Source of the DNA: Chiloscyllium plagiosum
Taxonomy: Eukaryota
Reading direction: 5' to 3'
DNA length: 64,000 nt
NCBI RefSeq assembly: GCF_004010195.1
Contig: NC_057718.1
Coordinates: 52,762,498 to 52,826,497 of the forward strand
Shown: positions 2,577-53,245 of the stretch, piece after piece
Position numbering within the stretch: the stretch's first letter is position 1
Layout: each line of letters starts with the position of its first letter
The notes under the pieces: model-generated
Told to the model about the DNA's origin: nothing
The model's database searches: none
Seen by the model: only the letters and a program-made list of their open reading frames with translations
Program-made: the position numbers and the translations under genes

Positions 2577-2711
2577 TTTTCCTGATGAAGGGCTTTTGCC
2601 CGAAACGTTGATTTTTGCTGCTCCTCAGATGCTGCCTGACCTGCTGTGCTTTTCCAGCATCACTCTAATCTTGTTTCCAATCTCCAGTATCTGCAGTACC
2701 CACTTCTGCCT
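2577..2711 (+). mobile_element. Penelope-like pseudo-LTR (family A) solo insertion with hammerhead motif
   Basis: Matches the 3' end of the GIY-YIG element at 52076-52205; flanked by 11-bp duplication AATAAAATTAC (2566-2576 and 2712-2722). Confidence 0.85.
2580..2611 (+). ncRNA. Minimal type I hammerhead ribozyme motif (family A)
   Basis: TC-CTGATGA-A-GGGC-TTTT-GCCC-GAAA-CGTT-GA: intact core, 4-bp stem II, palindromic ACGT stem III, GUU triplet. Confidence 0.7.
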
Positions 2712-2919
2712 AATAAAATTACATTGACAATCTCATTTACCCCCAATAGTCATAATATAATGGTTCCCTTGCTGAATGAGAATTTATTCACCTCTGTCTG
2801 AAAAAATATTTAGTGACTGACCTTTTGAGGTAGGGAGCTCCAGAGTTATACTTTGAGAGAGATAAAACAAATTCTCCCAGCCCAGTTTAGAAAGGTCAAC
2901 AACTAATTTTCAAACAATG

Positions 2920-3811
2920 TCCCTGTATACCCATGACTGCGTTGCTAAATACCAGACTAATGCCATCTATAAGTTCACTGATGACATCACCATAGTTGGT
3001 CAAATCTCAGATGGCAATGAAACAGACTACAGATGGGAGGTGAAAGACCTAGAAAAATGGTGCAATGAGAACAGCCTAGCTCTCAATGGTGGCAAAACCA
3101 AGGAACTCATTATTGACTTTTGGCGGGATGTTACTCATGCCCCTCTACACATTAACAGCGCAGAGATGGAACGAGTAGAGAATGTCAAGCTCCTGGGAGT
3201 GGTCATCCACAACAAGCTTTCTTGGACTCTTCATGTGGATGCACTGGTTACAAAGGCCCAACAACATCTCTTCTTCCTCAGGCAGCTGAGAAAATTTGGC
3301 ATGATAGTGCATACCCTTGTCAACTTTTATAGATGTACCATTGAGAGCATTCTGTCTGGATGTATCACTACCTGGTATGGCAACTTTACCATTCAAGATC
3401 AGAGACGGTTACAGAGAATGGTGAGCTCAGCCCGGACAATCACAAAGGCCAATCTCTTATCTACAGAATCCATCAACCAGGCCCACTGTCCAGGAAAGAC
3501 CACCAGAATCTCAAAGATCCATCCCATTCTGGCAATATTTTTCTACAACCTCTACCATTGGGGAGAAGGTACAGAAGCCTGAACACACGCACCAGCCACT
3601 TTGGAAACAGTTTCTACCCTACTGTTGTTTGAATACCGAATGGACTCACAAGCTCTGAACATTTGACTGTACCTGTTCTTGTCTTTGTCGCTGTTTATCT
3701 ATTATTTACTTATCTATGCTACTTGACTATGTGATCTGCCTGTATTGCTCGCAAGACAAAGCTTTTCACTGTGCCTCGGTACACGTGACAATAGATTCAA
3801 TTCAATTCAAT
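2920..3811 (+). mobile_element. 5'-truncated Rex1/Babar-like non-LTR retrotransposon (RT C-terminal half, 3' UTR, (TTCAA)n tail)
   Basis: ORF 2917-3582 has SLYTHDC...KFTDDITIVG...WCNENSLALN.KTKELIIDF and AQQHLFFLRQLRKFG...NFYRCTIESILSGCITTWYG, typical of Rex1-type RT; frameshifts into ORF 3360-3632 (RRYRSL.TRT..F.NSFYP); ends in attcaattcaattcaat. Confidence 0.85.
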
Positions 3812-5406
3812 AGTACTGGGCCTACCCAGAAAAGGAAGTATCCTTTCTTTATCAAAATCATTCAGAATCTTATCTATTTCGATCATGTTCCCCACCAATC
3901 TAAACTTTGCTGCATACCATTTACCTCAATAATCTAATTTCACAATTGGCTGAAACTCACTTTTTTGGTGAAGTTCCAGTTTCATGGAGGATTTCTCTCT
4001 ATGAGACTTAACTGTTTGTCTCACCACATCTGAACAAACATGCCTCTTTAACAACTTATTCCGCCCCTCTGGTGCCCCTCCTACCTGATTCTATTTCTTG
4101 CCTTAGTGGGAACAATGAGTAACTTAAAGGATATCCCTGAATAGACTGACATCCCTGGCATCAGTGCATTTTTTAAAAGGTGTTGGGCACCCAGACAAGC
4201 ACTAGTGTCAGGCGATGCCTTGCACAGTTCCTGACATTTGCCTTGTACATGACAGAGAAGGGAAAGTTGGTGTCTCACTTTGCGGGTAAGTTCATGGACA
4301 TCCTGGTGTTGCAAAAGTAGGACTTCTGCTCCCCCGGGCCTGGAGGAGGAGGTAATGACATCCATCCATCCCCAAGTGATTTGTGGTTGCCACCGAGGTC
4401 AGCACAGTCTCATCTTGAAGAATGCACAGCAATGCAGAAGAAAGGTCCAGCAAAAGTGTCATCTCTCCAATACCTGACTCTTTCTATCGTTGTTTCCATA
4501 CCCACCTCCCACCAAGTTGTCTGCTCTACCATGCTCAAAATTACTTTCAACATCTTCCCTCACACTGTCAGCCGCCCCAAAGTCCAACACCACTAACCCT
4601 GCATACTACTGGCTACTCACTTACATGGGACACCTCTCCACTTATACTTAAAATTACAACAGGGACACACACTTTCATCTCCCTTAATACTAACTTCCAT
4701 CTTGTTCTAAGTGGTAAGCAGCCCATAATTGAACAGAAAGAATCAAGATGGGTGTTGGGCTATCTGACATTTGGCTCCTGATTTAATTATGAACTTGACT
4801 CTAAATACTCCATGAGGCTAACTGATCATTCCAGGCTGATGGACAAATATTGGAACTGCCCTTGACATACTGTGCCAAAATCCCTTGACTTGACTGAAGA
4901 CTGCTGATAACCATGACAAGCTTCCAAACTATGTGTATGCACTAAACAGCAAGGCATAACAGAAGTACTGTGAGTCTGGTATCTCTGGCAGAGAAACAAG
5001 ATGCAAAATGGCAAGGCAAAGCCTGTATGCTGTGAACATCCATATAGGCTCAAAATGAGTGAGCACTAAGAGAAGAAACAAACAGCCCAGGGATGAGCTG
5101 GTGTATGTCCCTGAGCACAAAATATCATTGCTGCAGCATTATAGGCATAGTTGCCAATGTGTCTTGAAGTGCAGCATTGAAGTACAGAGGTATTCTGTGA
5201 GTGGGTCAGAGATGTGCCATGAAGGTTCTTAGAGGTTGAATGCTCATAGCTAGATACCAATGTCCATGGATGTGGGGTGTGTATGGTCCATGCCCATGAT
5301 GCATGCTCTGAGGTGCTGTTGCATGGTGATTAACATAGAGACAGTTAGATTGTACCCCTGCTTCTGGATTCCCTGGTCATTGGGTACATCCTTCTTATGT
5401 TTACCC

Positions 5407-5900
5407 TGTCTAGTTCTGTTCGAATTTTATATTAGGATCCCCTAATTCTTCTGAACTCTAATGAATATAGTCCTAACTGATCCAATCTCTCTTCATTTGT
5501 CAGTCCTGGTAACCCAGGAATCAGTCTGGTCAACCTTTGTTGTATATCCTTCAATCTTATAACATCCTTCCTCAGATAAGGAAACCAAACCTGCACACAA
5601 TATTCCAGGTGTGTTCTCACTAAGTCCCTGTACAATTGCAGCAAGACATCTCTGCTCCTATACTCAAATAATCTGGTTCTAAAGGCCAATATACTATTTG
5701 CCTTCTTCACCGCCTGCTGCATCTGCATACTTTCAGCGACAACGGTGTATAAGGACACACACTTCTCTTTACATCTCTCCCTTTCCCAATCTATTGCCGT
5801 TCAGATAATAATCTAAATTCCTATTTTTACTACCAAGGTGGATAACCTCACATTTCTCCACATTATATTTCATTTGCCATACATTTGTCCATGCAATGTT
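5407..5900 (-). mobile_element. CR1 LINE RT fragment
   Basis: ORF 5432-5758: VKKANSILAF...EYRSRDVLLQLYRDLVRTHLEYCVQVW.PYLRKD...QRLTRLIPGL...EERL..LGLYSLE.RR.RG. Confidence 0.9.
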
Positions 5901-6379
5901 TTTGAACAATGATTGTTTATGTATCCTCTGTAATGAAGCCAAAAACAAGCATTGTTTATTGCATTCACTATTTCCCTATTATCTACCATGAACTCCCCAT
6001 TCTCACTGACTGAGGACCAATGGCCTCTTTACTCTTTTCCTTTTTGATATCTGTAGAAACTCTTGCTAACTGTTTTTACATTCTAAACTAACTTCTTTTT
6101 ATACTCTAATTTCTTCTTTCTGATTAACCTTGATGTTATTCTCTACTATTTTAAAATATTCTGACCATCCATCTGACCTGACACTCAACTTTGTGTAATT
6201 ACGTGTTTTAAGTTTAATGCTTTCACTAACTGTATTGTTAACCACAATCTGAATCTCCAACCACAGAAGTGGAAAACAGGGTCAACAAATACACACACAA
6301 AAAATAGGATATTGACAACTGCAGAACTACTTTGAGTGCATCTCCACAAGTTCCTAAAGAGGACAGCTAAATAAGGCAA

Positions 6380-6975
6380 TTACGATGAAATTTGGGATAG
6401 TTTTCTCTGAATTATTAACCCAAAGAATGAATATAAGAGCATGGAGCTTACATTTGATATGTGTAAGATAAGAGTTGTGGGCAGTTGTAATACATGGTGC
6501 AGTTCTGATCAGGATATAGGAATACAGGAAGGATGTTGTTACACTAGGAAGGGAATAACGGAGATTTTAAATGGTGCCACCAGAAAGGAGAAACTTTAAC
6601 TTGGAAGAAATCTTGGAAAGACTTCAATTGTTTTATTTGAAACAGAAGAGGTTATGTGAGGATTTAACTCAGGCATACGAAATTATGAGGGCCTGAGATG
6701 AAGTAGAGAGCAGAGATCAAAGATGCAGTAAAGATTTAAAGCAATTTGCAGAAGGTTTATAGGGGAACTGGAAAATAATTTGTTGCAACCAGACAGCAGT
6801 AACTTACTGTCTGAATGTGTGGAACTCATGTCACATTTAAAACATCCTTAGATATGTACCCGAAATTTCATAACATACAGTGTTACATACAAAGAGTAGA
6901 AAGTAGAATGGGGTTAGGTAGCTTTTTTTGGCTAGTACAGACACAAATGTCCATCATGTATTGATGGTTTTCTAT
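6380..6975 (+). mobile_element. Degenerate CR1 3' part
   Basis: 'gaatataagagc' (EYKS), 'tggtgcagttctg', 'ttgaaacagaagaggttatgtgaggatttaa' (LE.RRL..DL), decayed CR1-like tail near 6970. Confidence 0.6.
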
Positions 6976-7019
6976 GGTGCAATGTAACTTTGGTTTCAGG
7001 AGCAGGCAATAGGCTGGAT

Positions 7020-7585
7020 GCTCTACAATGCCTCCCCAAAGCCTTCCCACCATCTGTAAAACTCAAAAAGTGTGGCGCTGGAAAAGCACAGCCAGTCAGG
7101 CAGCATTGTCTGAGTCAAGAATGTGATAGAATGCTCATTCAATAATGTTTAAGAAAATCAACACCATCCTGGACAATGCAGCTGAGTTTATTTCTATCCA
7201 TTGAATCACCTTAAATACTTATTCCTGCACTGTCAGTGCAGTGTCTCTGTTGAGTGTATCATCTTTGAGATTCAAGACAGCAACTTATCTAGGCTTCTTC
7301 AATAATATCTCTCAAACCTGTGACTTCTGTCAACTAGAAGAACAAAGGCAGCAGCTGCACAGAAGCAGCACCACTTGTAAGCTTCCCAGCTTATGCATCA
7401 TCCTACCTTTGGATTGTGTCATTGCCCCTTCATCATAGCTGTGTCAAAATATTGGATCTCTCCACCCAACAGCACTTTAAATGTGTCTTCAATGCATGAT
7501 AAATAATAGTGGTTTGAGATGATTGGTCACCAATTATTTATGAGCCTTGCCAGTGATTTGTACATCCCATGAATGAATAAGAAAA
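7020..7585 (+). mobile_element. 3' end of a second, divergent CR1/L2-group LINE family
   Basis: Similar to 55400-55886, 59920-60578 and 9370-10400 (-); ends gccttgccagtg...catcccatgaatgaataa. Contains a family A pLTR scrap near 7065-7106. Confidence 0.6.
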
Positions 7586-9194
7586 TCCTTCCTCTTACTT
7601 TTATCAACTTGTCCTACTCTGCATGACCTCTCTTTGACCTCCATTTATATTCAGGATCTTGAAGAAATCTGATCAGGTCATTTATGTCTGGAAGCATCTT
7701 CGTTCAGTATAAGAACAAAGTATTTCAACATCAGCTAAACCATTCTGTTTTGACTATTCAAACTCAGAATAGTCTCATGTAGGTATTCTCAATAAAGGCA
7801 TGCTGTTATATCAGCAGCTGGAAGAGATAATTATATAGCTAATATCTCAGCAGTCAATAATCCCTTTAAATAACATGGGTGGTTGAGGGATGATGGAGGA
7901 GTCTTTTAATGCATTTAACCCTAGGTTCAGCAATGCAAGGTTAAGTCAGGGCATACACTGGAAAGATAACAGTAAAGCCTTCAAAACAATGTTTCATACT
8001 TGTTCATATTAACATTTACAGCTCTGCAAACATTCGGCAGTCATGAGGTATGTGCATACAAACTCTTCAAGAAGTGGGATTTCTTGCTCTGACTCAAATC
8101 ATCTTGGAACCCATTTTCAAATCTTACTTAATTTTCTAGAACCTGATTTTGAGATACTAAACATCCCGAATGTTGTATATTAAGATCATATTTTCATACA
8201 TTCTCATGTGATTAACAATTGACTACAATGGACTAGCATTTTTGCCTTTAAGAATAACTGTAGTTCCCACAGCCAGTGTTGGACATGAAATGATTGAGAA
8301 GTTTTTTTTTACCTGTAGAGACATACCAGCAATAGTGAATCATGCAGGTTCACAGGGCTGCCTCTCTAAGCAGTCAAAGCATTTTTCTCTGAAAATGATC
8401 CTGAGTGGAGAAGAGAGTCAGAAACGTCCTCTGCAATTCCATCATTGCAAGACCTGTGGCCAGAAAGAAACCACTAAAATAATAAGGCAATGGATCAACT
8501 GGGGGGCACATGGAACCAATAATTAAGATTTATGTCATGTACAAATATAGGGCATTTTACAATATGGATCTGCCACACTTTCAAAAGTTCGAAAACACTT
8601 TCAAAGCAATTTCCATGTTCATAAGATGTTGCACAACTTGGAGTTGAAGGGCAGTTCCATTTACAAACAATACCAGATTCTGTCACTGATTGGTCAATAC
8701 TTAAATGTAACTTCCAAGACTTGCTTTTCCCAATCTTTGCCCTATGCCTATTTACCAGTCAAGCATCACCACATTTTGCATGAATCATCTGTAATTCACT
8801 TCTGCCATGTAAATCTTATCGATATATTGTGGAAAGACATGCTATGTGCCACTAAAATATTATCCTATTCATAGTCCTGTGGCTATTACTTTAATAAATA
8901 CTATTTAGCAAAAGGTTAACATCCCCATTAAAGTAACACACAAAGACAGATCAGACAAATGGTAATGATCTTGCTAAAAGCTTACAGCAAGATTTCCAAT
9001 TTTAAGTGCCTGTGTCTAAGATGTATTTAATGGCAGTTCCTGCGATAAACATCTTCCATTAACAAGACAAGAAGAATCCAAATTATTTATGAAAGGAATA
9101 TTTATTTGCTTATGTATTGTATTTTCATCGTGTGAGTTATGTAGTGCTTACATAGTGCATAAACAACAAAGTTGTCTCAAATCTAAAAGAAATA

Positions 9195-11694: not shown

Positions 11695-11834
11695 CAGTTC
11701 CGGAGAAGGATCACCATACTCAAAACATTAACACTGTTTTCTCCGCACAGATGCTGCCAGAGCTGTTGAGTTTCTCCAGCCATTTCTGTTTTGTGTCTTT
11801 CAGATCTCCAGCATCCATAATTCTTTCCTTCATG
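11695..11834 (+). mobile_element. Old Penelope-like pLTR (family D) with decayed hammerhead
   Basis: 'aaaacattaacactgttttctccgcacagatgctgccagagctgttgagtttctccagc' is shared with 32911-33020, 34260-34355 and 51626-51727; TSD TTATCTGAT at 11686-11694 and 11835-11843. Confidence 0.7.
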
Positions 11835-12334
11835 TTATCTGATGTTGCTCTGCCTATATTGTCCCTCATAACTTAAGAAACAGGGTTTGGATATGTGGTA
11901 TGGAATAACCTAATACTATAATGATTCATTCACAGACACATCAGTGGCTGGGTTATTATTAAGTTAATACATTGCAACTCAACAGCATGCTCTTCGTCGT
12001 GCAGCATGCTTCAAGTAACTCTGATATGATGGAGCATGAGATCTCAGATCACATATTATGATACATTTTTTGATATTGTGAGCATGTTTCTTGAAGATAT
12101 ATTAACCCACTAGCCATGAGATGTAACACAATATCCCCCTTCTCCATAGATAGACACTTATCATAAATGGATATGTGTGTAAATAATGATCCATAGGGAC
12201 ATGTTGTAAATTTAATAATGACTCAAAGCAATAAGGTTAAAAATCACACAACATCAGGTTATAGTCCAACAGGTTTAATTGGAAGCACACTAGCTTTCGG
12301 AGCGACGCTGCTTCATCAGGGAGCTTTGGAACTG

Positions 12335-12463
12335 CGCGCACATATACACAGATGTGCACACAGACACCCACACACACACTTACAGACACACACACTCCCA
12401 CACTCACACATGCACCCCCTCACAGACTTAAGACACTCTGCACTCACTACACACACACACACA
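12335..12463 (+). repeat. Degenerate (CA)n microsatellite abutting an assembly gap
   Basis: cacacacact tacagacaca cacactccca...acacacacac aca followed by Ns. Confidence 0.9.
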
Positions 12464-12526
12464 NNNNNNNNNNNNNNNNNNNNNNNNNNNNNNNNNNNNN
12501 NNNNNNNNNNNNNNNNNNNNNNNNNN
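12464..12526. other. Assembly gap (63 N)
   Basis: Run of n. Confidence 1.
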
Positions 12527-15500
12527 TTACAGCTAACCCGAGAATGCAACTTTTTTTAAAAAAGGTTTTGTGATTTACACATGAAAGAAGTGAAACTATC
12601 ACTGTATTCTAACAGATGAAGGGCTTAACAGACAATCAATTTTTCAATGTATAATTTCAGTTACATCACACTGTACATTTTTGCTATAAATTCTGTGTTA
12701 CGATCGAGCCCTCCACAATCAGCTAATGAAGGAGCGCCGCTCCGAAAGCTAGTGTGCTTCCAATTAAACCTGTTGGACTATAACCTGGTGTTGTGTGATT
12801 TTTAACTTTGTACACCCCAGTCCAACACCGGCATCTCCAAATCACAAAGCAATAAAACAGCATATATAGGACTGTTAATTCCAACTTCAGTGCAGCACTT
12901 TGGAGAATTTCACCTTGTCCTGATCTGGTGATCATACATTGTTCATTATTGTGCTTGTTTGATAACTCACTTGTCTTCCTGCTGGTTGTTGTCACTCAAT
13001 GTCACCACATAATTATCATTGTCAGAGTGTTCCTTCATACCTTCTTCATACGTAATCTATGTGTCTTGGTCTGAGCTGGCTTCTTTAGAAATCTGTGGAA
13101 CTCACAAAGATCTCAAAAGAAGTCAGGCTTCTTAAGATAGAAAACTGCATCTTCTGGCATTTTTAAACTTTGTTTTCTATGGGGGAGCTTTGGAACTGTG
13201 TGTTCCTGATCAATTAAATGACATTTGTTTCCTTTTAAAATTTGCATCCCCCACCCATGGTATTTTTTTAAAATATGAGAATGAAGTAAAGAACTCACTG
13301 TGCTTCAGTTTACATGTCGTGTTTAATTTTAACCGTACTTGTGATTTCAGCCTTTCTAATTTTTTACGAAACTCTCTTAGAAATTGTTTGTACAATTAAA
13401 TAACCTGCATCCTCATCAAAATGAAATTAGTTCTGTCATGCTTTTATCCAAGGTAAACTGATACTGTTGATTGACCAAGATTTCTGTTGTCCAGAAGAGT
13501 TTTCTATTTGAGCTTCAATTATCTTTCTAGACATCCACCATGAAGATGTTGATGTTTTTATTCTTTACGGACAACCACTGCTCCTAACCATAACAAGATA
13601 CTTTAAAGTAGAATTTAGATTCAGATAACATAGTTTACAGGACGGAAGAGACCCAATGATTAGCTTTTCTCTATCACTACAAAAGGTTAGAAGACAAGCC
13701 AAACATTAAACTATCTTACCGTACCTGTATGTGGTACCCCTCAGTTGCCTTTTAAAAGGGTTCACCAGTAAATATGTTGCTCATGAGACTGGAGCCCCTT
13801 TAAAGGATGATTATCTCATTCTCAGGAGCTACCGATGAATGGGATGCTTGGACGTTCAACAGTTTCAGAAGTATCATTAAGAGATGTTGCCACTGTTGGG
13901 ACTGGATTTGGCAGAAGGATATACCATAGAGGGACACCACCAACTAAGACACATAAGTGGGGTTGGAGGCATCAGCATTGGTTATACAAGTCCCAGTGAG
14001 TGTGGGAGTGTCTGATGGAGACTGGTAGAACCACTATTGGCAATTTGGTGCAGGAGGCCTATCAATGAGCCACAGAGTTCCTGAATAGGTAGCCATCCTT
14101 TGAGCTCACAGACAGGCAACCAGGTTTGAAGAGATAATATCCCCACTTGTCAGAGGTCCAATTGCTGTTCCTAAAGTGTCAGTGGTAACAGGAAAAGACA
14201 CTTAATTGAACCCTTAAGTGGTTGACTATTCCTTTAGGTGGGGTGTTGTCCTTCATCTTGCCCACTGCTGACAAATGACATAAAGGCAGGAGCATGACAG
14301 GTACACCACCCCACTTCCATATCTCACAGAATAACTACACAGACAGATAAAATCCAGCTCAATTAATTAGTGTGATCATGAATTCCAATGATATTCATGA
14401 TTAATTGGCCCAAACATCAATCAATAGCTTAGTTTTCCATAAATCACTTCTATGTCTTTCATTCTTCACCACAGTGTCATTCCACCTTTGCATAGTTCAA
14501 CTCTAATTGTATGACTGGATACAGTGAAAGATAACATTCAATTGTGGTTATTATTTGAGTATGACTAAGCCAAGGTTTTGATTTCAGAGGCTCTGAGGTG
14601 CTGTGTTATAATTATTTTTTATGTTTAATGTTACTGTCTCGCTACTTCCATGGCAGCTAAATTTGTTGAACATTCTTCCTATAATGCAGAAACATCCTAT
14701 TTTCAATCATTTTTATTTTCAGTTTGTAGGACTGACAGGATTATTAATTAGTCTCTAACTATGATTTCATCCTTTTTGGAAGTAACAGATGACTAATCAT
14801 TTATGGGTTAAAGTAACTGCTTCAAATCAATTGGAACTGGAATTGCATTAGGTTGTGCAAGAGTAATGGGAGAAATTTCCTTTCATTTTCACTATTGTGA
14901 CACTACTGAATGAAAACACTTTTCGTTTGGGTAAAATCAAAACCTGTATAATCTTCAGTACATTGGGGCTATAATCAAAGTGGATAGGACACATTTGACT
15001 GCTTTTTGGGGCAGACTTCAGTTAAGCTGGGGCTCTACCCTGTGTAGACTTTAAGCAATGTCTGCAAGTAGTGGCTGACCAGTGGTTGCTGAGCCCACCT
15101 CTTTTCATGAAAATATGGGACAGTGTCCGACAGAAGGATTCTCATCATTTCCCCCTCATTGTTTGAGGTTAAAGTATGCCTGCAATAAAGCAACATTTTG
15201 GAGAATATTTGTTGATGGGGCAAGATCAATAGCATTGTTAATTCAGGCCTATTTGTAAAAATTGCAACTGGGTCTCCATCAATTTATCAGCACCTAACCT
15301 GCATGTGTTCAAAATGATGTGATTACTTTCATTGAAAATGCAACTCAACAGCAACTCAACATCAAAAATGTAAAATTAAAATAATGCTCAAGACCAAGTT
15401 ATGTCGAAATAGGTACAAATAGGAAATAGGTACACAGTTCAATATATATGAAGTAAATTCTGAAATATACATGTAGAACCTGAATAAGAGAATGGACATG

Positions 15501-15559
15501 AGCTTTGAGTTCCCAAGAGAAGGCAGACATTGGAAAAGGCTAACAGATGCTCCTGCTCC

Positions 15560-18490: not shown

Positions 18491-18720
18491 GGAGACAATA
18501 AGGTCTGCAGATGCTGGAGATCAGAGTTGAGAGTGTGTTGTGGAAAAGCAGAGCAAGGCAGGCAACATTGAGGAGCAGGAAAATTGATGTTTCAGGCTGG
18601 AGCCCTTCATCAGGAAAACCCATCATTTCCTGATGAAGGGCTCCAGCCTGAAAAGTTGATTTTCCTGCTCCTCGGATGCTGCCTGACCTGCTGTGCTTTT
18701 CCACAACACACTCTCAACTT
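18491..18720. mobile_element. Fold-back (palindromic) family A Penelope pLTR pair with two hammerhead motifs
   Basis: About 18524-18617 is inverted to about 18626-18719 around the spacer 'acccatca'; CTGATGAAGGGCTCCAGCCTGAAA occurs on both strands; approximate TSD tcag(a/g)ttt. Confidence 0.85.
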
Positions 18721-21971: not shown

Positions 21972-22100
21972 GGAGAAAGTGAGGACGCAGCTGCTGGAGA
22001 TCAGATTCGAGAGTGTGTTGCTGGAAAAGTACAGAAGTTCAGGCAGCATCCGAAGAGTAGGAGAGTCAACCTTTCAGTCATAAGCCCTTCATCAGGAATG
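21972..22100 (-). mobile_element. Family A Penelope pLTR
   Basis: ggagaaagtgagg...gcagcatccgaagagtaggagagtcaacctttcagtcataagcccttcatcaggaat; CTGATGA core on the minus strand. Confidence 0.85.
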
Positions 22101-24734: not shown

Positions 24735-25235
24735 ATAGTGATTTTTGAGAAGATTTGTAGCTCAAGTTGATGATAAGACTGTAAGTTTGCTCTCTGAGCT
24801 TGAAGGTTTGTTTTCAGACATTTTGTCACCATACTAGTTAACATCATCACTGAGAGTCTCTGGTGGCATGTTCTAGGATTGTGTGTTGTCCCAGTCAAAG
24901 TGGTGTCCTTCTTTTTCTGTATGTATAGAAACTAACGATAGAGGGTCGTGTCTTTTGGTGGCGAAACAAAGACACGCACAAGATTCTTAGAGGCATGGCA
25001 TTCTAACCAGAACTTCATCAATAAACAAATAAAGTTAGATCCTATCTACCTTCCCTTGAAAAAAAGAATCAGAAATGACATCACCCACCAAAAGAAACCA
25101 AGAACTAAAAATAGAGAGACGGGTCATACCACCAGCACTTCACCAGAGACTCTCACTGACGATGTTACCTAGTATGGTGACGAAACATCTGAAAATAAAC
25201 CTTCAAGCTCAGCAAGCAAACTTATAGACTTATAA
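24735..25235. mobile_element. Penelope-like element fragment (family C): GIY-YIG C-terminus, internal inversion, inverted pLTRs
   Basis: Minus 24865-24962 reads ATKRHDPLSLVSIHTEKEGHHFDWDNT; plus from 24964 reads KQRHA..FLEAWHSNQNFINKQIKLDPIYLPL; about 24770-24865 is inverted to about 25140-25235. Confidence 0.8.
25153..25192 (+). ncRNA. Minimal hammerhead ribozyme motif (family C)
   Basis: TCA-CTGACGA-T-GTTACC-TAGTAT-GGTGAC-GAAA-CATC-TGA: 3-bp stem I, 6-bp stem II with one G-U pair; stem III probably decayed from ACGT. Confidence 0.65.
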
Positions 25236-36000: not shown

Positions 36001-36338
36001 AACATAGGTGTGAAACGTATTGTTGTTGGAGCTTTGGGAGCCTGGAGGGACTGAAAATGGAAGCACTACATTCTCACCACATCTGGCACAGACCACACAG
36101 ATCACTGTGTTTGGAAGGAACTGGCACAGCTGCACTGTGCGTGCAGTGGAAGAGTAGGCAGATTGAGATGTCAATCTGCAACAAATTATGATTTGAAACT
36201 GACCTGTCATTTCAAACCTTGTGGGTCATGATTGCATCACTTCCTAAACACTCCAAGCTGTACGTGGGTCCCCAACTACCATCTAAATGTATCAGAATTG
36301 GACCTTCAAGTGAAGTGAAGTTAACTTAAGTACTGAGT

Positions 36339-36503
36339 TAAAAATCACACAACACCAGGTTGTAGTACAACAAGTTCAATTGGAAACACTAACTTTTGGA
36401 GGGCTGCTTCTTCATCAGGTGGTTGAACCTGTTGGACTATAACCTGGTGTTGTGTGATTTTTAACTTTGTGCACCCCAGTCCAACACCGGCATGTCAAAA
36501 TCA
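36339..36503. mobile_element. Older fold-back family B insertion
   Basis: Inverted arms aaaaatcacacaacaccagg / cctggtgttgtgtgattttt; TSD TAAGTA(C/T)TGAGT at 36327-36338 and 36504-36515. Confidence 0.85.
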
Positions 36504-37989
36504 TAAGTATTGAGTCATGTATCTTTTGGAGGAACTCTTGCAAGTTCTTGAAGTCAGCAAGAAATGGTAGTTCAGGGGACCCTGTGGCCTCAAAGCTTGT
36601 CAATCTGATAGAGTTAGAAGTCCCTTTTTAGCTGAGCCACAAATCAGAAATGCAGGATATTAGCAGAGAGAGGACACTATGCTTAGAGGAAGGGGGTCAA
36701 AGGTTCTGAATAGAAGGCCATTATCGTACTTGAAATTCAGAACACTTGTCCAACATCACTTCAGTTAAAAACAGTGGCTGAGGTGGCAATGATTCACCAT
36801 CTCGGAAAATCCCCTGATATGCACAACCTTGTCCTGTGGGGCTTACAGCCAGAAAGCAGGACAGTGGCTGCAATACTAGTGATGATTAAGATTGCCTTGG
36901 ATCCTTCATTTCTACACCTCAGAATCATAACACGCTCCATTTGACAATATCGACAAGATGTTGCTTAATGTTGCGCATTGGAGCATCGGTTAGTTTGTCA
37001 AAATCTATGTAAAAGAAGAAGGGAGTTCAAAGTCTTCTCTCTTAGCAGAGGAAAGCAGGAGTTTGTCCCCAGGCAAGCAGAGAAAGATTTCCAGTGGCAC
37101 AGGCAGACATGACTGCACTCATGTTGCTCTGCATGCACCGATATATCAATGAAGAAACAGACAACTATAGAAAAAGGCTACACCATTAACTTGCAGTTGC
37201 TCTGTTTCCTTCTGGTTTGTTCAGCCCATTGAAGCCAGCGACGGCTTCAGGTGAAGGTATCATTTACCTTCTAAAGTACATATAGTCCTGGGATCTGAGC
37301 TGATGGCTGTGAGTAACAGAACAGATAACAGTGTTTTTTTTTTCATTTGACAGTAATTCTTGCTCATGCTTCTCATGGTGAGGCTGCTCTGGCTGTCCAG
37401 GTGACACCTCCTGAGTATCTGAAAAATCAAATGCAGAATTAGAGAGTTGGGTGAGTAAAGGGATGTGTTGGACAGTCAGCGAGAGGTCCACGGTTACACA
37501 ATCTGTGACTTGTGCTTCATCTTAGTTTGACAAATGAGTGTGAAATGAGATCTGAAAAGGTACATAAGTCAAGAAAATGCTATCATCCTGCATATTCTCA
37601 ATGACACCAGCAATGGTCTCATTCACTGCAGCAGCAATAACTTGTAGCATTGTCTCTGTCAGAGTGCTTGATTAATGCAGCTCTTCCCCCATTGGTTCAT
37701 TATAGCTCTATCCTATTATATGCCATCTTGTCCCTCTAGAGAGAGAGAGAGGAACATCAGGGAATGTATTGTGATGTATTTGGATGAAGTGAATATCATA
37801 GCTGAATAATTGAAAGAGAGTGAGGTTTGAGTGGAAAACCAGCAATAGGGGTGATAAGTGTGTCACGGTGAGGTCGATACTTTAAGGTTAGTTATAATTC
37901 TTCATTGGCTGGATTATAATGATGTACGACATTTAGCAATGTATGAGGTTGGTGGTGGGATTGATTAGGGTTAACATTTGAAAATATTT

Positions 37990-46324: not shown

Positions 46325-46500
46325 GTTAATATATATGTGTGTATTCACCGCTAAATATATACATATTCACTACTACATATACACTGCTTTTATACATATA
46401 TTCACCACTTAAAATAAAATATATTTGCTGCTTTCCTTATTATATTTACCAATTAATATTTACACTTATGTATATGTATCATTGTTAATAAATGTATTAA
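46325..46500. repeat. Degenerate AT-rich minisatellite (about 20-bp unit, atatattcacc.ct)
   Basis: gtattcaccgct, catattcactact, atattcaccact, atatttaccaat recur. Confidence 0.55.
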
Positions 46501-46594
46501 TATCATTTAATTTATAGAGAGTATTTTGTTACATCTCACTAAATTCACCATTTAATCATAACCAATGGAAAATTCCTGGCTTTTGGTTCTGCAG

Positions 46595-46886
46595 CTATGG
46601 CACTTCTAGCTGCTCAATTAATATACAGCAGATCTACAGCTCTACTGTTATTCGAGATGTTTCTCTTTCTCTCTCCCTCTGGAGAGAAGTTTGTTCTGGA
46701 TGGCTCAAGATTAAATCTCTCGATGTCTCAGCAGCTAGCCATTAACTCAGTTTTTCTAAATATTACCACAGCATAACTGTACGGTCTTGACAGTGATTCT
46801 TATTAAGCCAGTATTGATGTTACAGGAGAGGAATACAATCTATGTCACCACCCATTTAATTTTATCATCCAAGAGCCACAATATAG
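46595..46886 (+). repeat. 292-bp direct repeat, copy 1
   Basis: ctatggcacttctag...gagccacaatatag is repeated at 47971-48262 with about 10 differences. Confidence 0.95.
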
Positions 46887-47124
46887 CTCTAGGTAGGAAA
46901 CTGGCCAAAGACTGTATCAGACACAGTCAGCACTACAAGGTCAGCATATGATATTTTTTATATATTCCAGTTACAAACAGAACCATAGATTTCTGCACAT
47001 CAGTCAGAGGTAGCCCCTAAACTATATCCAGGTGGCTTCAGATAGCAACCTGCAGGAACTAACTCAGACAATATCTGAAAAGAGAAAAGAGTATTTTTTA
47101 CAATACTTGGGCAATTTTCTTTTT

Positions 47125-47522
47125 GGGTTTGTTTAGCTCAGTTGGCTGGAGAGCAGATTTGCGATGCAGAATGAATCTCACACCACAAGATCAATTCCCA
47201 TCCCAGCTGAGGTTACTGAGAAGGTCCTTCCTTCTTAACTTCTCCCCTTGCCTGAGGCATTGACTAGGAGAATGTGAGGACTGCAGATACTGGAGATCAC
47301 AGTCAAAAAGTGTGACGCTGGAAAAGCACAGCAGTGCTGATGAAGGGCTTATGCCTGAAACATTGACTCTCCTGCTCCTCAGATGCTGTCTGACTTGCTT
47401 TTTCCATTCCGCCCTACACTTTTGACTATGAGGCATTAACTTGCCAGCCAAACTATCACCAGTCATCTCTCTCCAATAAGACAGTAGCCTGTGATCCTTT
47501 GGAACTATAGTAACTTTACTCT
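47125..47522 (+). mobile_element. tRNA-headed SINE interrupted by a Penelope fold-back insertion
   Basis: A box 'tagctcagttgg', B-box-like 'gatcaattccc'; the body resumes after the TSD at 47429. Confidence 0.6.
47266..47428. mobile_element. Family A Penelope fold-back mini-insertion with one hammerhead motif
   Basis: Minus-strand 3' end (47266-47333) joined to plus-strand CTGATGAAGGGCTTATGCCTGAAAC...; 13-bp TSD TGAGGCATT(G/A)ACT (47253-47265 and 47429-47441). Confidence 0.85.
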
Positions 47523-47970
47523 GAGTGGTTTAATAATAAATCATAATTTACTTCTTATCTTTCCTTATGTTATTTTCCTCTTTGCTGGCAGCAATCTTTG
47601 GGATTTTTAAGTTCATTTTTAAAAGGAACAAACAAATAGTTCTTGTTGGAAAGATGTAAAGATTTTTAGCAGTGCATGGAGAAGTGTAATATTCCTGCTG
47701 GGACTAAATATGTATAATTATTGACAATGTTAAAAACTGAAATATGCCAAACGTTTGGACATTGGATTAAAAAGGTATAATCAAGGAATGAGGTCAACAA
47801 TTTAATGTGGCTGCAAGCCATCTGCTGTTCATAGAATATCATGTATATTTGGGAAAGCATTAAGCAAAGCTTTTATGGAGATGCTCCAAATTGCCGGAAA
47901 CCTTGATTGGAAAGACTATAGGGTCATACGCTAATCAATGCCTAACATGTTTTTCTGGTCTTAAATAAAC

Positions 47971-48262
47971 CTATGGCACTTCTAGGTGCTCAATTAATAT
48001 ACAGCAGATCTACAGCTCTACTGTTATTCGAGATGTTTCTCTTTCTCTCTCCTTCTGGAGAGAAGTTAGTTCTGGATGGCTCAAGATTAAATCTCTCGAT
48101 ATCTCAGCAGCTAGCCATTAAATCAGTTTTTCTAAATATTACCACAGCATAACTGTACGATCTTGACAGTGATTATTATTAAGCCAGTATTGATATTACA
48201 GGAGAGGAATACAATCTATGTCACCACCCATTTAACTTATTCATCCAAGAGCCACAATATAG
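47971..48262 (+). repeat. 292-bp direct repeat, copy 2
   Basis: Near-identical to 46595-46886. Confidence 0.95.
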
Positions 48263-48534
48263 GGAGTTAGAAGGAAGAAATCTGCCAAAGCAGCAAGTTT
48301 CTATCACTCTTGGTGGAGGAAATTGGGACCTTCATAAAGGTTCTATATCTCAGTTTTTTGACCATCTTGTAAACTCTGCAAAATGAACTTGGAACCAGCA
48401 AACTTTCATTCAAGCCAAAGCTTGCTAGGAAGATATCCCATCTGCCTAAGGAAGTCAGAAATTTGATTTTGTCAACAAGAAACCTGGTAGACTGAGAAAT
48501 AGTTTGTTTCTGTTTTTTGCTCTTCAAATCATTA

Positions 48535-49034
48535 NNNNNNNNNNNNNNNNNNNNNNNNNNNNNNNNNNNNNNNNNNNNNNNNNNNNNNNNNNNNNNNNNN
48601 NNNNNNNNNNNNNNNNNNNNNNNNNNNNNNNNNNNNNNNNNNNNNNNNNNNNNNNNNNNNNNNNNNNNNNNNNNNNNNNNNNNNNNNNNNNNNNNNNNNN
48701 NNNNNNNNNNNNNNNNNNNNNNNNNNNNNNNNNNNNNNNNNNNNNNNNNNNNNNNNNNNNNNNNNNNNNNNNNNNNNNNNNNNNNNNNNNNNNNNNNNNN
48801 NNNNNNNNNNNNNNNNNNNNNNNNNNNNNNNNNNNNNNNNNNNNNNNNNNNNNNNNNNNNNNNNNNNNNNNNNNNNNNNNNNNNNNNNNNNNNNNNNNNN
48901 NNNNNNNNNNNNNNNNNNNNNNNNNNNNNNNNNNNNNNNNNNNNNNNNNNNNNNNNNNNNNNNNNNNNNNNNNNNNNNNNNNNNNNNNNNNNNNNNNNNN
49001 NNNNNNNNNNNNNNNNNNNNNNNNNNNNNNNNNN
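48535..49034. other. Assembly gap (500 N)
   Basis: Run of n. Confidence 1.
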
Positions 49035-49071
49035 CCAGTCCCATGTTCCTAACCATGCCCTGAGCTCAAGG

Positions 49072-49665
49072 CTGGTACAATTGCAATATTTAAAAGGCAT
49101 TTGGATGGGTATATGAATAGGTAAAAACCCTACTGAGAATCCTCTTGCAAGAATGCCTGCCTTGAAGAAGTTTTCCTCCTTTCTCTACAAGAATCTCAGG
49201 GAGTCCCTTTCCCACTGCAACTCCCAGGTCATTTCCTCTGCCATGAAGCACTTCAACCATGTCCTGAAAATCTTCCTTTCCACCTATCCACTCCACCCTC
49301 CTCCCTAAACTATCACCTTCATCCCCTCCCCCACTCACCTATTGTACTCTATGCTACTTTCTCCCCACCCCCACCCTCCTCTCATTTATCTCTCCACCCT
49401 TCAGGCACTCTGCCTGTATTCCTGAAGAAGGGCTTTTGCCCGGAACATAGATTTTACTGCTCCTCGGATGCTGCCTGAACTGCTGTGCTTTTCCAGCACG
49501 ATTTTAATCTAATCCCTGGGTATATGAATAGGAAGGGTTTGGAGGGATATGGGCCGGGAGCTTGCAGGTGGGACTAAATTGGGTTAAGATATCTGGTCGG
49601 CATGGACGGGTTGGACCGAAGAGTCTGTTTCCATGCTATACATCTCTATAACTCTATGACTCTAT
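49072..49665 (+). mobile_element. CR1 3' end interrupted by a Penelope derivative
   Basis: 'tttaaaaggcatttggatgggtatatgaatagg' resumes as 'aagggtttggagggatatggg...ctataactctatgactctat' (CR1 octamer-type tail). Confidence 0.85.
49122..49516 (+). mobile_element. Internally deleted family A Penelope derivative
   Basis: Short ORF MPALKKFSSFLYKNLRESLSHCNSQVISSAMKHFNHVLK (from 49154) fused to a C-rich 3' region similar to 52210-52380 reverse, then pLTR CTGAAGAAGGGCTTTTGCCCGGAAC; 16-bp TSD TGGGTATATGAATAGG (49106-49121 and 49517-49532). Confidence 0.75.
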
Positions 49666-50655
49666 TCTCTCCATTGCTGCACTGTATGCGCTCTACAGGA
49701 CCTTCCATTGGAAGATTGTCCCATAAAAGCAGTGCTAAGCAAATATGCACTTTTTGTCTGACATGGATCGGAAATAGGAATTCTGACCCAGATGGAAAAT
49801 TTGATCTAATATCTTCATATCTAATGAAAACCTACATCCTATTTCGAGTTTGACATTAGATTCTTAGCCTCCTCTTGACATCATCATATTTTCTGCTTGG
49901 GTGACTGTGGCTGTCAGAGCCAGATTCTATCTCTATCTTGCTGATCCCCTTGGACATTTAAAGGGTCTCAGGACAGCATTTCACCTACCCCCTCTACTTC
50001 AATGATTGAGATAACCAGACTCTCACTGATCCTGGAATCAAAATAGGGAGAAATACAGAGCTAATATTTTGAATCTTTTGTCGGAACAGATTTCTCTGTA
50101 CAGATGTTGCCAGATCTTCTACATTTCACCAGCAGTTTCTTTCTTTGTTTCTACTCCCCCTCTGTCTGGCTATTAGTTCAACTGGCTTTGCAGCTTTAGT
50201 CTGTTGCTGGCTATTGGTTCTGTGCATACGATCATGCAGAGAATATATGATCTATGCAAAGAACCCCATGTCATTCGACCAAGTCCGAAAACCGTGGCTG
50301 ATTTTTCATTATTTTTATTTTATCCTTTTATATATGTTCTTTTGGAATTGTGAACCAAAAAGTACTCCTGATTTTTGGGCAGTTTGTGTTTAAAAGAAAG
50401 TGGGTCAAGCAATGCTGTGGTTTGTTTGTGAGGCCCATCCTGGAAGTGAATTGAAGGTTGGTTCTTGATCATAAGGTTCAACAGGCACTTTGAGACCATG
50501 AAGGGCAGCATGTTTAAACAGATAGCAGATGTTGGCCGTTAATGATGGCAATACCTGGGAATTCATTCCTGAACATCTGACAGAGAGCTTGTCCTCAAGC
50601 AAAGTTAAAAATCACACAACACCAGGTTATAGTCCAACAGGTTTAATTGGAAGCA

Positions 50656-50690
50656 CACTAGCTTTCGGAGCGATGCTCCTTCATCAGGTG
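50656..50690 (-). ncRNA. Minimal hammerhead ribozyme motif (family B, minus-strand mirror copy)
   Basis: Exact reverse complement of 50714-50748. Confidence 0.8.
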
Positions 50691-50713
50691 ATTGTCATCA
50701 GGTGATAGACAAT

Positions 50714-50748
50714 CACCTGATGAAGGAGCATCGCTCCGAAAGCTAGTG
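50714..50748 (+). ncRNA. Minimal type I hammerhead ribozyme motif (family B)
   Basis: CAC-CTGATGA-A-GGAGC-ATC-GCTCC-GAAA-GCTA-GTG: stem I CAC/GTG, 5-bp stem II, palindromic AGCT stem III, CUA triplet with predicted cleavage after 50745. Confidence 0.8.
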
Positions 50749-51007
50749 TGCTTCCAATTAAACCTGTTGGACTATAACCTGGTGTTGTGTGATTTTTAAC
50801 TTTGTACACCCCAGTCCAACACTGGCATCTCCGAATCATGTCCTCAAGCAGATTGCAGATGTTGAATGGTTACTCGGACTTCATGGGGAGATGGTCAGTC
50901 TGACAGGAAGAGGTCAGAGATTTGAAATAGATTTTGGAGAATGTTTTCTGTGAGAAGAGGTTTGGCTGTCAGTGCTACAGCATGAAGATTTGAAAGCTAT
51001 TTGCCTG

Positions 51008-51323
51008 TGGGCAGCATGATGGCTCAGTAGTTAGCACTGTAGTCTCACAGCACCAGGGACACGGGTTTGATTCCTGCCTCAGGTGACTGTCTGTGTGGAG
51101 TTTGCATATTCTCTCTGTGTCTGTGTGGGCTTTGTCTGGGTGCTCCGGTTTCCATCCACCATCCAAAGATGTGCAGGTTAGGTGAATTGGCCATAGCATT
51201 AGGTGCATTAGTCAGGGGGTAAGTATAGGGTAGTGGAAAGGTTTGGGTGGGTTACTCTTCAGAGGGTTGGTGTAGACTTGTCGGGCCAGAGGGCCTGTTT
51301 CCATTCTGTAGGGAATCTAATCT
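51008..51323 (+). mobile_element. Full-length HE1/V-SINE-like tRNA-derived SINE
   Basis: A box TGGCTCAGTAG, B box GGTTTGATTCC, V-domain-like 'gtgtggagtttgca...gtgctccggtttcc...ccaaagatgtgcaggttagg', CR1-like tail 'gggcctgtttccattctgtagggaatctaatct'. Confidence 0.85.
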
Positions 51324-51625
51324 CCCATTATTAGCTACTGGATGTTCAGAGGATAGAAACTAAATTATAAGTATAACCGATTTCCTCTGAGTAAACTGAA
51401 GAAGTGGCACTTAATACCATCTTTAGATATACAATGAAGAAACAACTCATCTCTGTCTGTGGAACAAGGTATTCTGAAAACCATTTAAGTAATCTGGCCA
51501 ATTTTGTTTTACTCTTTTATTAATCCCTTAACTAAGTTTGTTTGTCCTTCTGAATTTTGTGTGAACAGTGCTGAAAATGTAAATTATCGGGTTTAAACAT
51601 AAACATCAATTCGATTACTTTATTG

Positions 51626-51727
51626 GAACAAATTACTGCAAATGCTGGAAATCATAATGGGGTCAGGAAGCATCTGTGGAGAGAGAGCAAACTAATGTTT
51701 CGAATCCAGATGACTCTTCTTCAGAGT
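51626..51727 (-). mobile_element. Family D Penelope pLTR with a recognisable hammerhead core
   Basis: Minus strand CTGAAGA-A-GAGTC-ATCTG-GATTC-GAAA-CATTA; about 20-bp imperfect TSD tcaatt(c/a)gattacttt(a/g)ttg (51606-51625 and 51728-51747). Confidence 0.75.
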
Positions 51728-51876
51728 TCAATTAGATTACTTTGTTGCTTAATTTTGTGCTGCTAATGTTAGTGTATTGTTAATAAATTAATATGCCTTT
51801 TGTTTCAATATAATCTGATGGTGAGAAGTGATTATTCTCATAATCTGGGATGGGAGATTGAAAACCAACCGCCCAT

Positions 51877-52006
51877 ATTCCTGATGAAGGGCTAATGCCC
51901 AAAACATCGATTCTCCTGCTCCTCGGATGCTGCCAGACCTGTTGTGCTTTTCCAGCACCATACTTATTGACTCTAATCTCCAACATCTGCAGTCTTCACT
52001 GTCTCC
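51877..52006 (+). mobile_element. Family A Penelope pLTR, tail-to-tail with the element at 52076
   Basis: attcctgatgaagggctaatgcccaaaacatcg...ctgcagtcttcactgtctcc. Confidence 0.85.
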
Positions 52007-52075
52007 ATGGTACAAAGATAGACAAATCAGGCTTCCTACCTCTGCATTGGATTTGGCTATCTGTCTTTGTACCAT

Positions 52076-53245
52076 GGAGAAAGTGAGGAACTGCAGTTGC
52101 TGAAGGTCAGAGTAAAAAGGTGTGGCGCTGGAAAAACACAGCAGGTCAGGCAGCATCCGTGGAGCAGAAGAGTTGACATTTCAAGCATAAGCCCTTCATC
52201 AGGAATGTGGGGGGGGGGGTTGGCAAGGGGGCTGAGAGATAAATAGGAGAGGAGGGTGGAGCTGGGGGAAAGGTAGCTAGGAAGATGATAGATTGATGAA
52301 GGTTGGGGGTGATGGTGATTGGTCGGAGCAAAGAGTGGATAGGTGGGAAGGAAGATGGACAGGTAGGACAGTTCAAGATGGCATGGTGAGTTGGAGGGTT
52401 GGATCTGGGATATGGTGTGGAGAGGGGAGATGAGGAAACTGGTGCAATCGACTGATTCCGTGTAGTTGGAGGGTCCCAAGGCAGAAAATGAGGTGTTCTG
52501 GCTCCAATAATTGGGTGGCTAGGATTTTGCAGTGGAGGAGCCCTAGGATTTGCATGTGCTTGGTGATGTGGGAGGGGGAGTTGAAGTGGTCCGCCACAGG
52601 ACCATGGGATTGTTTAGTGCGTGTATCCCCGAGATGCTCTCTGAAACATTCTGCAAGTTGGCATCTTGTCTCCCCAATGTAGAGGAGACCACATTGAGAG
52701 CAACAGACACAGTAGATAAGGTGTTCGGATGTGCAGGAAAATCTGTGCGGGATGTGGAAGGATCCTTTGGGGCCTTGGACGGAGGTGAGGGGGGGAGGTG
52801 TGGGTGCATGTTTTATACCTCTTGCGGTGGCAAAGGAAGGTGCTGGTAGTGGAGGTGTGTTGGTGAGGGGGCTTGGACTTCATGAAGGAGTCACGGAGGG
52901 AATGGTCTCAGTGGCATGCTGAAAGGGGTGGGGAGGGAAATATATCTCTGGTGTTGGGGTCTGACTGTAAGTGGCAGAAATGGCGGAGGATGATGTGTTG
53001 TACCCAGAGATTGATGGGTGGAAGGTGAGGACGGGGGTGGTTCTATCTTTGCTGCGGTTAGAGGGGTGGGGTTCAAGGGCGGAGGTAAGGGAAGTGGAGA
53101 AGATGCACTCGAGGGCATTGTTGACCAAGTGGGAGGAGATATTGTGGTCCTTGAAGTAGGAGGCCATCTGGGATGTTCTGGAGTGGAATTTATCCTCCTG
53201 GGAGAAGATGCGGTGGAGGTGGAGGAATTGGGTGCAGATTGGGAA
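52076..53245 (-). mobile_element. 5'-truncated Penelope-like element: RT C-terminus, Cys linker, GIY-YIG endonuclease, pLTR
   Basis: Frameshifted minus-strand peptides: QFLHLHRIFSQEDKF...YFKD...VLTFHP; TFLCHRKRYKTC; LIYCVCCSQCGLLYIGETRCQLAECFREH (about 52634-52720); ADHFNSPSH...EHLIFCLGTLQ.HGI. 10-bp TSD TTTGTACCAT (52066-52075 and 53246-53255). Confidence 0.9.

What the first reader, a model, noticed from the sequence alone, without database searches (positions are those of the whole stretch)
2580..52205. Dispersed minimal hammerhead ribozymes in four Penelope-type repeat families, with cross-family covariation
Seen: the pattern CTGA(T/A/C)GA + 1 nt + hairpin + GAAA + 4-nt palindrome + NUH recurs in otherwise different short repeats. 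Family A: GGGC-N4-GCCC, ACGT (2582, 18630, 47338, 49422, 51881; minus near 18612, 22095, 52202). Family B: GGAGC-N3-GCTCC, AGCT (50717, 12723; minus 50687, 12318). Family C: GTTACC/GGTGAC (25156). Family D: GAGTC/GATTC (minus 51724). Stem sequences differ completely but pairing and core are kept, and all carry one extra nucleotide after A9. Families A and C are physically attached to GIY-YIG ORFs in this window. Established: Penelope-like elements carry minimal hammerheads with a palindromic, loop-less helix III that is thought to cleave as a dimer. Inference: this genome carries a very high density of potential self-cleaving RNAs, more than ten motif copies in 64 kb, some intact, which could cut any host pre-mRNA transcribed across the region.
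Basis: partly seen in the sequence, partly recalled or inferred. Interest (0 to 1): 0.75.

Follow-up and report, generated by a model that had tools for sequence, protein, structure and literature searches.

The report
Penelope retroelement stubs carrying minimal hammerheads
These motifs are minimal hammerhead (self-cutting RNA) sequences of a known kind, sitting in mostly decayed end-stubs of Penelope-like jumping genes; they show no sign of being kept out of host transcripts, but U6 RNA copies fused at the predicted cut bond suggest they likely do cut the element's own RNA at times.

Summary
All 14 listed motifs exist and covary across four families, but only 3 are intact, and two of those are buried in a fold-back hairpin. 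They are the minimal hammerheads of Penelope-like element (PLE) pLTRs described in 2014, including the extra nucleotide and the palindrome. This 3.56-Gb genome holds at least 44,772 exact copies; all four families abut GIY-YIG sequence somewhere.

Host pre-mRNA cutting is not supported: in 1.21 Mb of myosin introns, 151 copies lie sense and 176 antisense (intact 25/25).

Added here: (1) stubs start just before the motif, about 30 nt after a TATA box, and 86 of 100 such family-B starts carry an untemplated G, a likely cap copy; (2) family-B RNA is polyadenylated about 30 nt past the cut site and reads cross that site; (3) 5 of 7 U6–PLE fusion loci join U6 at the predicted cut bond, indirect evidence of cutting in vivo.

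The scan noted all three before on other DNA (702 similar notes). I re-tested each; the U6 and cap-G leads came from those notes. Known kind, with testable mechanistic clues.

The parts
2577..2711 (+). Family A stub; intact minimal hammerhead (C3 at 2582, predicted cut 2609|2610, U at position 17); starts 5 nt before C3; 11-bp target-site duplication
12235..12844 (.). Family B head-to-head insertion with 11-bp target-site duplication; minus arm motif 12319 (stem II broken), plus arm motif 12723 (G5-to-A)
12685..12690 (+). TATA box of the family B pLTR, 30 nt before the predicted start at 12715
   Evidence: sequence; TATA at -36 to -40 in 16 of 19 long B copies; promoter activity inferred
12763..12783 (+). 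Family B polyadenylation signal (12763-12768); poly(A) addition maps to 12780 and 12783 in family-wide reads
   Evidence: same site on L005
18498..18720 (.). Family A head-to-head palindrome (motifs 18613- and 18630+), both decayed, folds into one long duplex
21992..22100 (-). Family A stub, decayed motif at 22095
24745..25232 (.). Family C inverted pair (motifs 24850- core broken, 25156+ palindrome lost) around the C-terminal end of an endonuclease and 3' UTR
36328..36504 (.).
47262..47428 (.). Family A stub (motif 47337+, decayed) with inverted tail piece; 9-bp target-site duplication
49417..49504 (+). Family A motif at 49422, core broken, with upstream pLTR sequence
50602..50838 (.). Young family B palindrome, 12-bp target-site duplication; both motifs intact (50687-, 50717+); both arms begin at the predicted start with an extra G; arms end at the two different tail ends; RNA predicted to fold into a ~105-bp hairpin
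51628..51728 (-). Family D stub (old family), motif 51724, palindrome lost
51876..51994 (+). Family A stub, motif 51881, core broken
52093..52207 (-). Family A 3' pLTR end, motif 52202, decayed
52373..52879 (-). Decayed GIY-YIG endonuclease coding region of a 5'-truncated family A PLE, upstream of motif 52202
   Evidence: 104,231 first-look candidates in the genome
11696..11815 (+).

Best explanation
The motifs are the minimal hammerheads of four Penelope-like retrotransposon families, scattered as mostly decayed 100-130 bp end-stubs that likely arose when reverse transcription began just downstream of the ribozyme and ran off the capped front end of an uncut element RNA. Shown: each family abuts GIY-YIG sequence; stub 5' ends pile up 0-9 nt before the core in A, B and D; family B stubs carry an untemplated G there; family B RNA is polyadenylated about 30 nt after the cut site; genomic copies end further 3'; copies decay at CpG sites like neutral DNA. 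Inferred: the pLTR is laid out like U3-R-U5 (TATA / ribozyme between start site and poly(A) site / tail with the two reverse-transcription starts). Two primings of one RNA would give the head-to-head palindromes. The ribozyme is selected in the parent element's RNA, where the 5' and 3' copies could pair through the palindromic helix III, probably helped by the element's protein. It likely cuts only a minority of transcripts, and U6 fusions at the cut bond record such cuts. Inserted stubs are mostly inert toward host transcripts.
For: Exact genome counts A 24,055, B 17,799, C 2,876, D 42; reversed-pattern controls 0. GIY-YIG sequence upstream of A (window, many loci), B (L018, L131), C (L014, L024, L123, L144), D (L119, L188, L191). 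5' ends 0-9 nt before C3: A 85 of 127, B 35 of 71, D 54 of 69, C only 6 of 42. An inverted arm directly upstream in 58 of 127 A and 32 of 71 B copies. TATA(-like) at about -35 (A), -38 (B), -53/-48 (C), -33 (D, 2 of 4). Of the first 100 of 2,409 B copies starting at -8 with non-template flank, the base before is G 86, T 8, A 6; G one base further out 29 (counted by hand). Poly(A) loose ends at C3+55/57 (644 and 751 reads) and C3+57/60 (324 and 441 reads); not among the listed loose ends of three contig sets, which show element ends at C3+83-88 and +121. Sense depth has no step at the cut site (1023 vs 1113). U6 fusions: 48 Rfam U6 matches, 46 loci examined; 7 loci are U6-PLE; 4 join family A exactly at G1.1 with four different subfamily tails, 1 joins family C at its cut site, 2 join inside the endonuclease region. 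Only 4 of 192 ordinary A copies start there. CpG-driven decay hits the core and palindrome (15-31% changed, against mostly under 10% elsewhere).
Against: No cleavage was measured. No full-length element with both pLTRs was recovered, so the start site, the link from tail to ORF and dimer formation are inferred. The extra G is clear only in family B; in A it is 49 G to 51 A, and in the small sample 7 of 25 A and 5 of 15 D (not significant). Some B G's could come from the inverted arm. The 5'-end pile-up is inflated where a subfamily lacked an upstream reference (D had only 4), and family C shows little pile-up. Ordinary B copies show no excess of starts at the cut site: 69 raw, of which about 30 are small slippage indels, against 40 and 30 at two neighbouring positions. 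The family C U6 joint is ambiguous by shared T's. RNA data are one single-cell poly(A) sample (X19; X20 laid 0 reads) with the species label of the best DNA holders, pooled over thousands of copies; cut products would be lost in such a library.
Confidence: 0.78

Rival explanations
1. One reading: the dispersed intact copies cut host pre-mRNAs often enough to matter.
For: About 41 intact copies per Mb in the intron sample (50 in 1.209 Mb). U6 fusions suggest the fold can cut in vivo. The 2026 preprint reports tandem retrozymes under-represented in Xenopus introns (passage). Family B was 14 sense to 27 antisense in the first intron set.
Against: Overall 151 sense vs 176 antisense (95% interval of the sense share 0.41-0.52); intact 25 vs 25; the B bias reversed in the second set (17 vs 11). 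Same-family, same-strand neighbours within 400 nt are rare (10 pairs among 521 copies, none with both motifs intact). Fold-back pairs bury the motif. The second intron set is inferred to be intragenic by extrapolation from myosin exons, and weak cutting deep in introns could be tolerated, so a small effect is not excluded.
Confidence: 0.07
2. The stubs are their own non-autonomous SINE or retrozyme families that are transcribed and re-mobilised as short hammerhead RNAs.
For: Very high copy number, uniform length and target-site duplications. Retrozymes derived from pLTRs are reported in vertebrates.
Against: Stubs that start at the predicted start site lack the upstream TATA region; the same motif and tail occur on long copies carrying GIY-YIG sequence; 5' ends vary and 3' ends fall at two tail positions; tandem arrays are nearly absent.
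Confidence: 0.08
3. The motif never cuts in vivo and is kept only as a protein-binding, promoter or start-site structure.
For: In PMC11167929 catalytic mutants did not affect insertion in vitro and no RNA-seq reads ended at the cut site. Here most stubs include the uncut motif, and poly(A) reads cross the site.
Against: Five U6 fusion loci join at the predicted scissile bond, four without T microhomology. Core, helix I, helix II and palindrome all covary across four families.
Confidence: 0.07

Closest known systems
[quoted passage not shown]
   Same: [quoted passage not shown]
   Different: They report about 4,000 (coelacanth) and 9,000 (Xenopus) motifs with their descriptor; here at least 44,772 exact matches to four patterns. 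Helix I is only 2-4 bp here. The parts read name no shark and give no start-site, poly(A) or U6 evidence.
Poseidon element of Anolis (PAc), Frangieh et al. 2024 (PMC11167929; parts 1-2 of 4 read)
   Same: Hammerhead at the pLTR, two internal reverse-transcription starts downstream of it that match the genomic tail ends, both DNA strands nicked and extended, uncut RNA as main template.
   Different: In vitro work on one lizard element. It found no reads ending at the cut site, whereas U6 fusions here point to cutting in vivo. The parts read describe no cap-G or poly(A) site.
Complex PLE insertions with inverted 5'-truncated pLTR, tail and putative TATA/Inr (Craig et al. 2021 PMC8557442; Arkhipova et al. 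2013 PMC3846280; passages read)
   Same: Head-to-head palindromes, optional 30-40 bp tail on one arm, 8-10 bp target-site duplications (9-12 bp here), TATA followed by an initiator-like sequence in the pLTR.
   Different: The 2013 paper favoured self-priming on an antisense template for the palindromes. Here both arms of three palindromes carry the same U6 fusion, which fits two primings of one sense RNA (inference).
U6/LINE-1 chimeras made by RtcB ligation, Moldovan et al. 2019 (PMC6789731; passages read)
   Same: U6 ending in its T run joined to a retroelement 5'-OH end and then retrotransposed.
   Different: There the L1 break points vary and the nuclease is unknown; here 5 of 7 joints fall at a ribozyme's predicted cut bond.
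Non-LTR retrozymes (bioRxiv 10.64898/2026.07.22.740005; part 1 of 5 and passages read)
   Same: Short non-coding type I hammerhead repeats related to PLE pLTRs.
   Different: Retrozymes are tandem arrays; these are dispersed single or head-to-head stubs.

Membership tests
Minimal type I hammerhead of metazoan PLEs | Core CUGANGA ... GAAA ... UH | tested here: met
   in the window only 3 of 14 listed copies are wholly intact
Minimal type I hammerhead of metazoan PLEs | One extra nucleotide between A9 and G10.1, and G10.1-C11.1 pair | tested here: met
   present in all 167 core-intact copies tallied, though the search pattern itself required it; its identity is family-specific
Minimal type I hammerhead of metazoan PLEs | Palindromic positions 15.1-16.1 without loop 3 | tested here: met
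   ACGU in A, C, D and AGCU in B
Minimal type I hammerhead of metazoan PLEs | Short helix I, covarying between families | tested here: met
   2 bp (A), 3 bp (B, C), up to 4 bp (D)
Minimal type I hammerhead of metazoan PLEs | Self-cleavage as a dimer or with protein help | not testable with these tools
   indirect only: U6 fusions at the cut bond
Endonuclease-positive Penelope-like elements | C-terminal GIY-YIG endonuclease upstream of the pLTR | tested here: met
   the Pfam score in the window is below the curated cut-off; B rests on 2 loci, D on 3
Endonuclease-positive Penelope-like elements | Single ORF with PLE-type reverse transcriptase between two pLTRs | tested here: inconclusive
   no full-length copy among 15 candidate regions; one 411-aa frame with RT-like motifs in L118, recognised by eye
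Endonuclease-positive Penelope-like elements | Inverted 5'-truncated pLTR, optional tail, target-site duplication | tested here: met
Neptune (A, B, D) versus Penelope/Poseidon (C) clade | RT phylogeny and cysteine linker | not tested
   labels recalled from the look of the endonuclease sequences; no tree built
Non-LTR retrozymes | Tandem repeats, each unit with an intact hammerhead | tested here: not met
   10 same-strand pairs under 400 nt among 521 copies, none with both intact
Rfam hammerhead families | Match to a curated covariance model | tested here: not met
   no hammerhead family among 12 matches at E<=5 in the window; minimal forms lack the helices these models score (inference)

The most novel reading that the evidence does not exclude
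The PLE pLTR works as a U3-R-U5 unit in which the hammerhead is the R region, the first 32-37 nt of the capped RNA, repeated just before the poly(A) site. The mass of stubs are inserted strong-stop-like cDNAs of uncut RNA, palindromes come from priming one RNA twice, and U6 fusions are a DNA record that animal minimal hammerheads do cut in the germ line and leave ligatable 5'-OH ends, as a circular-template model needs.
Probability: 0.5. Interest if true: 0.65.

Novelty: new member of a known kind. Interest (0 to 1): 0.42.

Why it matters
The motif class is known, and most inserted copies look inert, so the finding as written is ordinary. What matters is the open question of whether PLE hammerheads cut in vivo and what for. 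The 2014 paper had no in vivo evidence, the 2024 paper found cutting dispensable in vitro, and the 2021 paper calls the function unclear. A genome with roughly a million copies (extrapolated from 270 per Mb) records the RNA's start, its poly(A) site, its reverse-transcription starts and occasional cuts, which gives exact positions for direct tests. The used poly(A) signal in family B is a more likely route to effects on host transcripts than cleavage.

Tried and rejected
Rfam scan: no hammerhead family; the miRNA hits at 50661-50743 reflect the palindrome and fall below gathering scores. Search for a full-length element in 15 regions with long open frames failed; most held N gaps. Sense depletion of family B in the first intron set (14 vs 27; 7 vs 20 without inverted partners) did not replicate (17 vs 11). 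Control repeats showed no bias either (CR1-like 58/47, SINE 78/64), so the test was not shown to detect a bias in this genome. Excess of family B starts at the cut site: not found; family A 4 of 192, inconclusive. Cap-G in families A and D: not shown. Run search: no RNA holder listed for window 12560-14500, so whether the window itself is transcribed is unknown; run X20 laid 0 reads; no pile of molecule starts or ends was listed. Paper searches that found nothing relevant to the added observations; one search gave only PMC3846280. Subscription papers and supplements were not seen, so these observations may be in print.
Full report
1. Observation. All 14 motifs are in the window, three off by one base. 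A strict descriptor gives 9 hits against 0.005 expected from 200 shuffles. Profiles built from genome copies find 20-21 motif-bearing copies and about 10 tail-only pieces. Only 2582+, 50687- and 50717+ are intact. The last two are arms of one 237-bp insertion with a 12-bp target-site duplication. On either strand its RNA folds into a hairpin of about -195 kcal/mol in which stem II has pairing probability 0.0, against 0.99 for the motif alone. Rfam has no hammerhead match.

2. Genome context. The window lies on contig C9 of a 3.56-Gb genome. That it is a shark rests on recalled repeat families and on earlier AI notes, not on a test. Exact counts: A 24,055, B 17,799, C 2,876, D 42, with reversed controls of 0. 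In 1.209 Mb of myosin-gene introns there are 327 motif-bearing copies, 50 intact; shuffled sequence gave 1 hit. The window's density is therefore typical. All four families have GIY-YIG sequence upstream in some copies. The family A endonuclease piece has 104,231 first-look candidates. No full-length element was recovered.

3. Covariation. Stem II differs between families and stays paired; helix I is 2-4 bp and covaries; helix III is ACGU or AGCU; the extra nucleotide is A (A, B, D) or U (C). This shows selection in the parent elements. After insertion the copies decay: in 121 A and 63 B copies, CpG positions in the core and palindrome are changed in 15-31% of copies, as are CpG positions outside the core.

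4. Host pre-mRNA cutting. Sense 151, antisense 176 (p=0.18); intact 25 and 25. A family B bias in set 1 (14/27) reversed in set 2 (17/11). Set 1 (620 kb) lies between myosin exons found; set 2 (590 kb) is extrapolated from them. Control repeats were unbiased too, so the test's sensitivity in this genome is not shown. Dimer partners are rare (10 same-strand pairs under 400 nt among 521 copies), and 58 of 127 A and 32 of 71 B copies have an inverted arm directly upstream. Published assays found no monomer activity and low dimer activity and a need for the element's protein.

5. Where the stubs begin. 5' ends fall 0-9 nt before C3 in 85 of 127 A, 35 of 71 B and 54 of 69 D copies, but only 6 of 42 C copies. 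Missing subfamily references inflate this. Long copies have a TATA or TATA-like word about 30 nt before an initiator-like A at -4 (A, D) or -8 (B) (promoter function inferred). Both arms at 50602-50838 show it. In A the count is 49 G to 51 A among the first 100 of 13,266, 19 being perfect palindromes, so not shown. B copies starting at the cut site are no more common than at two neighbouring positions (69 raw with about 30 slippage indels, vs 40 and 30; 6 of 12 loci inspected still held the motif upstream). Most stubs were therefore copied from uncut RNA.

6. RNA. One single-cell poly(A) run with the species label of the best DNA holders shows family B sense RNA with poly(A) at C3+55 to +60, after an ATTAAA signal at window 12763. 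Sense depth falls from about 1290 to 390 there and has no step at the cut site. Contig sets show element ends at C3+83-88 and +121, matching two tail ends. Reads pool thousands of copies, cut products would be lost, and family A showed no such site among the listed rows.

7. Evidence of cutting. Earlier notes pointed to U6 fusions, which I tested. Of 48 Rfam U6 matches, all lie in the 46 loci examined. Seven loci join U6 to a PLE. L211, L228, L238 and L245 join the five-T end of U6 directly to G1.1 of family A, each with a different subfamily tail. L240 joins it to the family C cut site in its inverted arm (ambiguous by shared T's; the other arm has a few changes). L223 and L227 join inside the endonuclease region. 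About 2 in 100 ordinary A copies start at that base. In L228, L238 and L240 both arms of a palindrome carry the fusion, so it likely existed in the RNA. U6 ends in a cyclic phosphate and RtcB joins it to 5'-OH ends (passages), the end a hammerhead leaves (established knowledge). A template jump from a cut RNA end would also need an RNA end at that bond.

8. Mechanism. Shown: anatomy, 5'-end pile-up, extra G in B, poly(A) site in B, tail ends, decay, U6 joints. Taken from PMC11167929: internal reverse-transcription starts at the tail ends and nicking of both strands. Inferred: start site at the ribozyme's first bases; stubs as run-off cDNAs; palindromes from two primings of one RNA; cutting by pairing of the 5' and 3' ribozyme copies on the element's own transcript, in a minority of molecules, possibly yielding the circular template proposed in 2014. 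Confidence 0.78 for the whole; about 0.95 for the identification alone.

9. Comparison and novelty. The cap-G, poly(A) and U6 observations were not found in seven paper searches; subscription papers and supplements were not seen. The scan had noted them on other DNA. I had reached the start-site and poly(A) readings from my own before seeing those notes; the cap-G and U6 tests were prompted by them.

10. Verdict. New member of a known kind. Observation confirmed, host-cutting inference not supported. Interest 0.42, carried by the indirect in vivo cleavage record and the mapped RNA ends.

Noticed in passing
L211, L228, L238, L245, L240 (G000 C10, C7, C31, C10, C1): U6 copies fused at the predicted hammerhead cut bond of families A and C; three are palindromes with the fusion on both arms.
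   Followed up: yes
window 12763-12783 and L005 412-414: Family B carries a used polyadenylation site about 30 nt past the cut site; sense copies in introns could end host transcripts early.
   Followed up: partly
16 or so of the 46 U6 loci, e.g. L209, L216, L226, L229-L236: Many U6 copies are followed within a few bases by the 5' end of one SINE family; either U6-SINE fusions or a preferred insertion site.
   Followed up: no
family A about C3-21 and C3+55 to +74; family D C3+35 to +54: Polypyrimidine tracts ending in CAG that look like 3' splice sites, in D followed directly by an ATG that may start the ORF.
   Followed up: no
L056, L060, L073, L092, L102: A second family C subfamily with a bulged or mismatched stem II and a different helix I (GCA/UGC).
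   Followed up: partly
window 54445-55539 (-) and 2866-3582 (+): Decayed non-LTR reverse transcriptase fragments (Pfam RVT_1), used only as orientation controls.
   Followed up: partly
L212: A U6 copy followed at once by a tRNA-like sequence.
   Followed up: no
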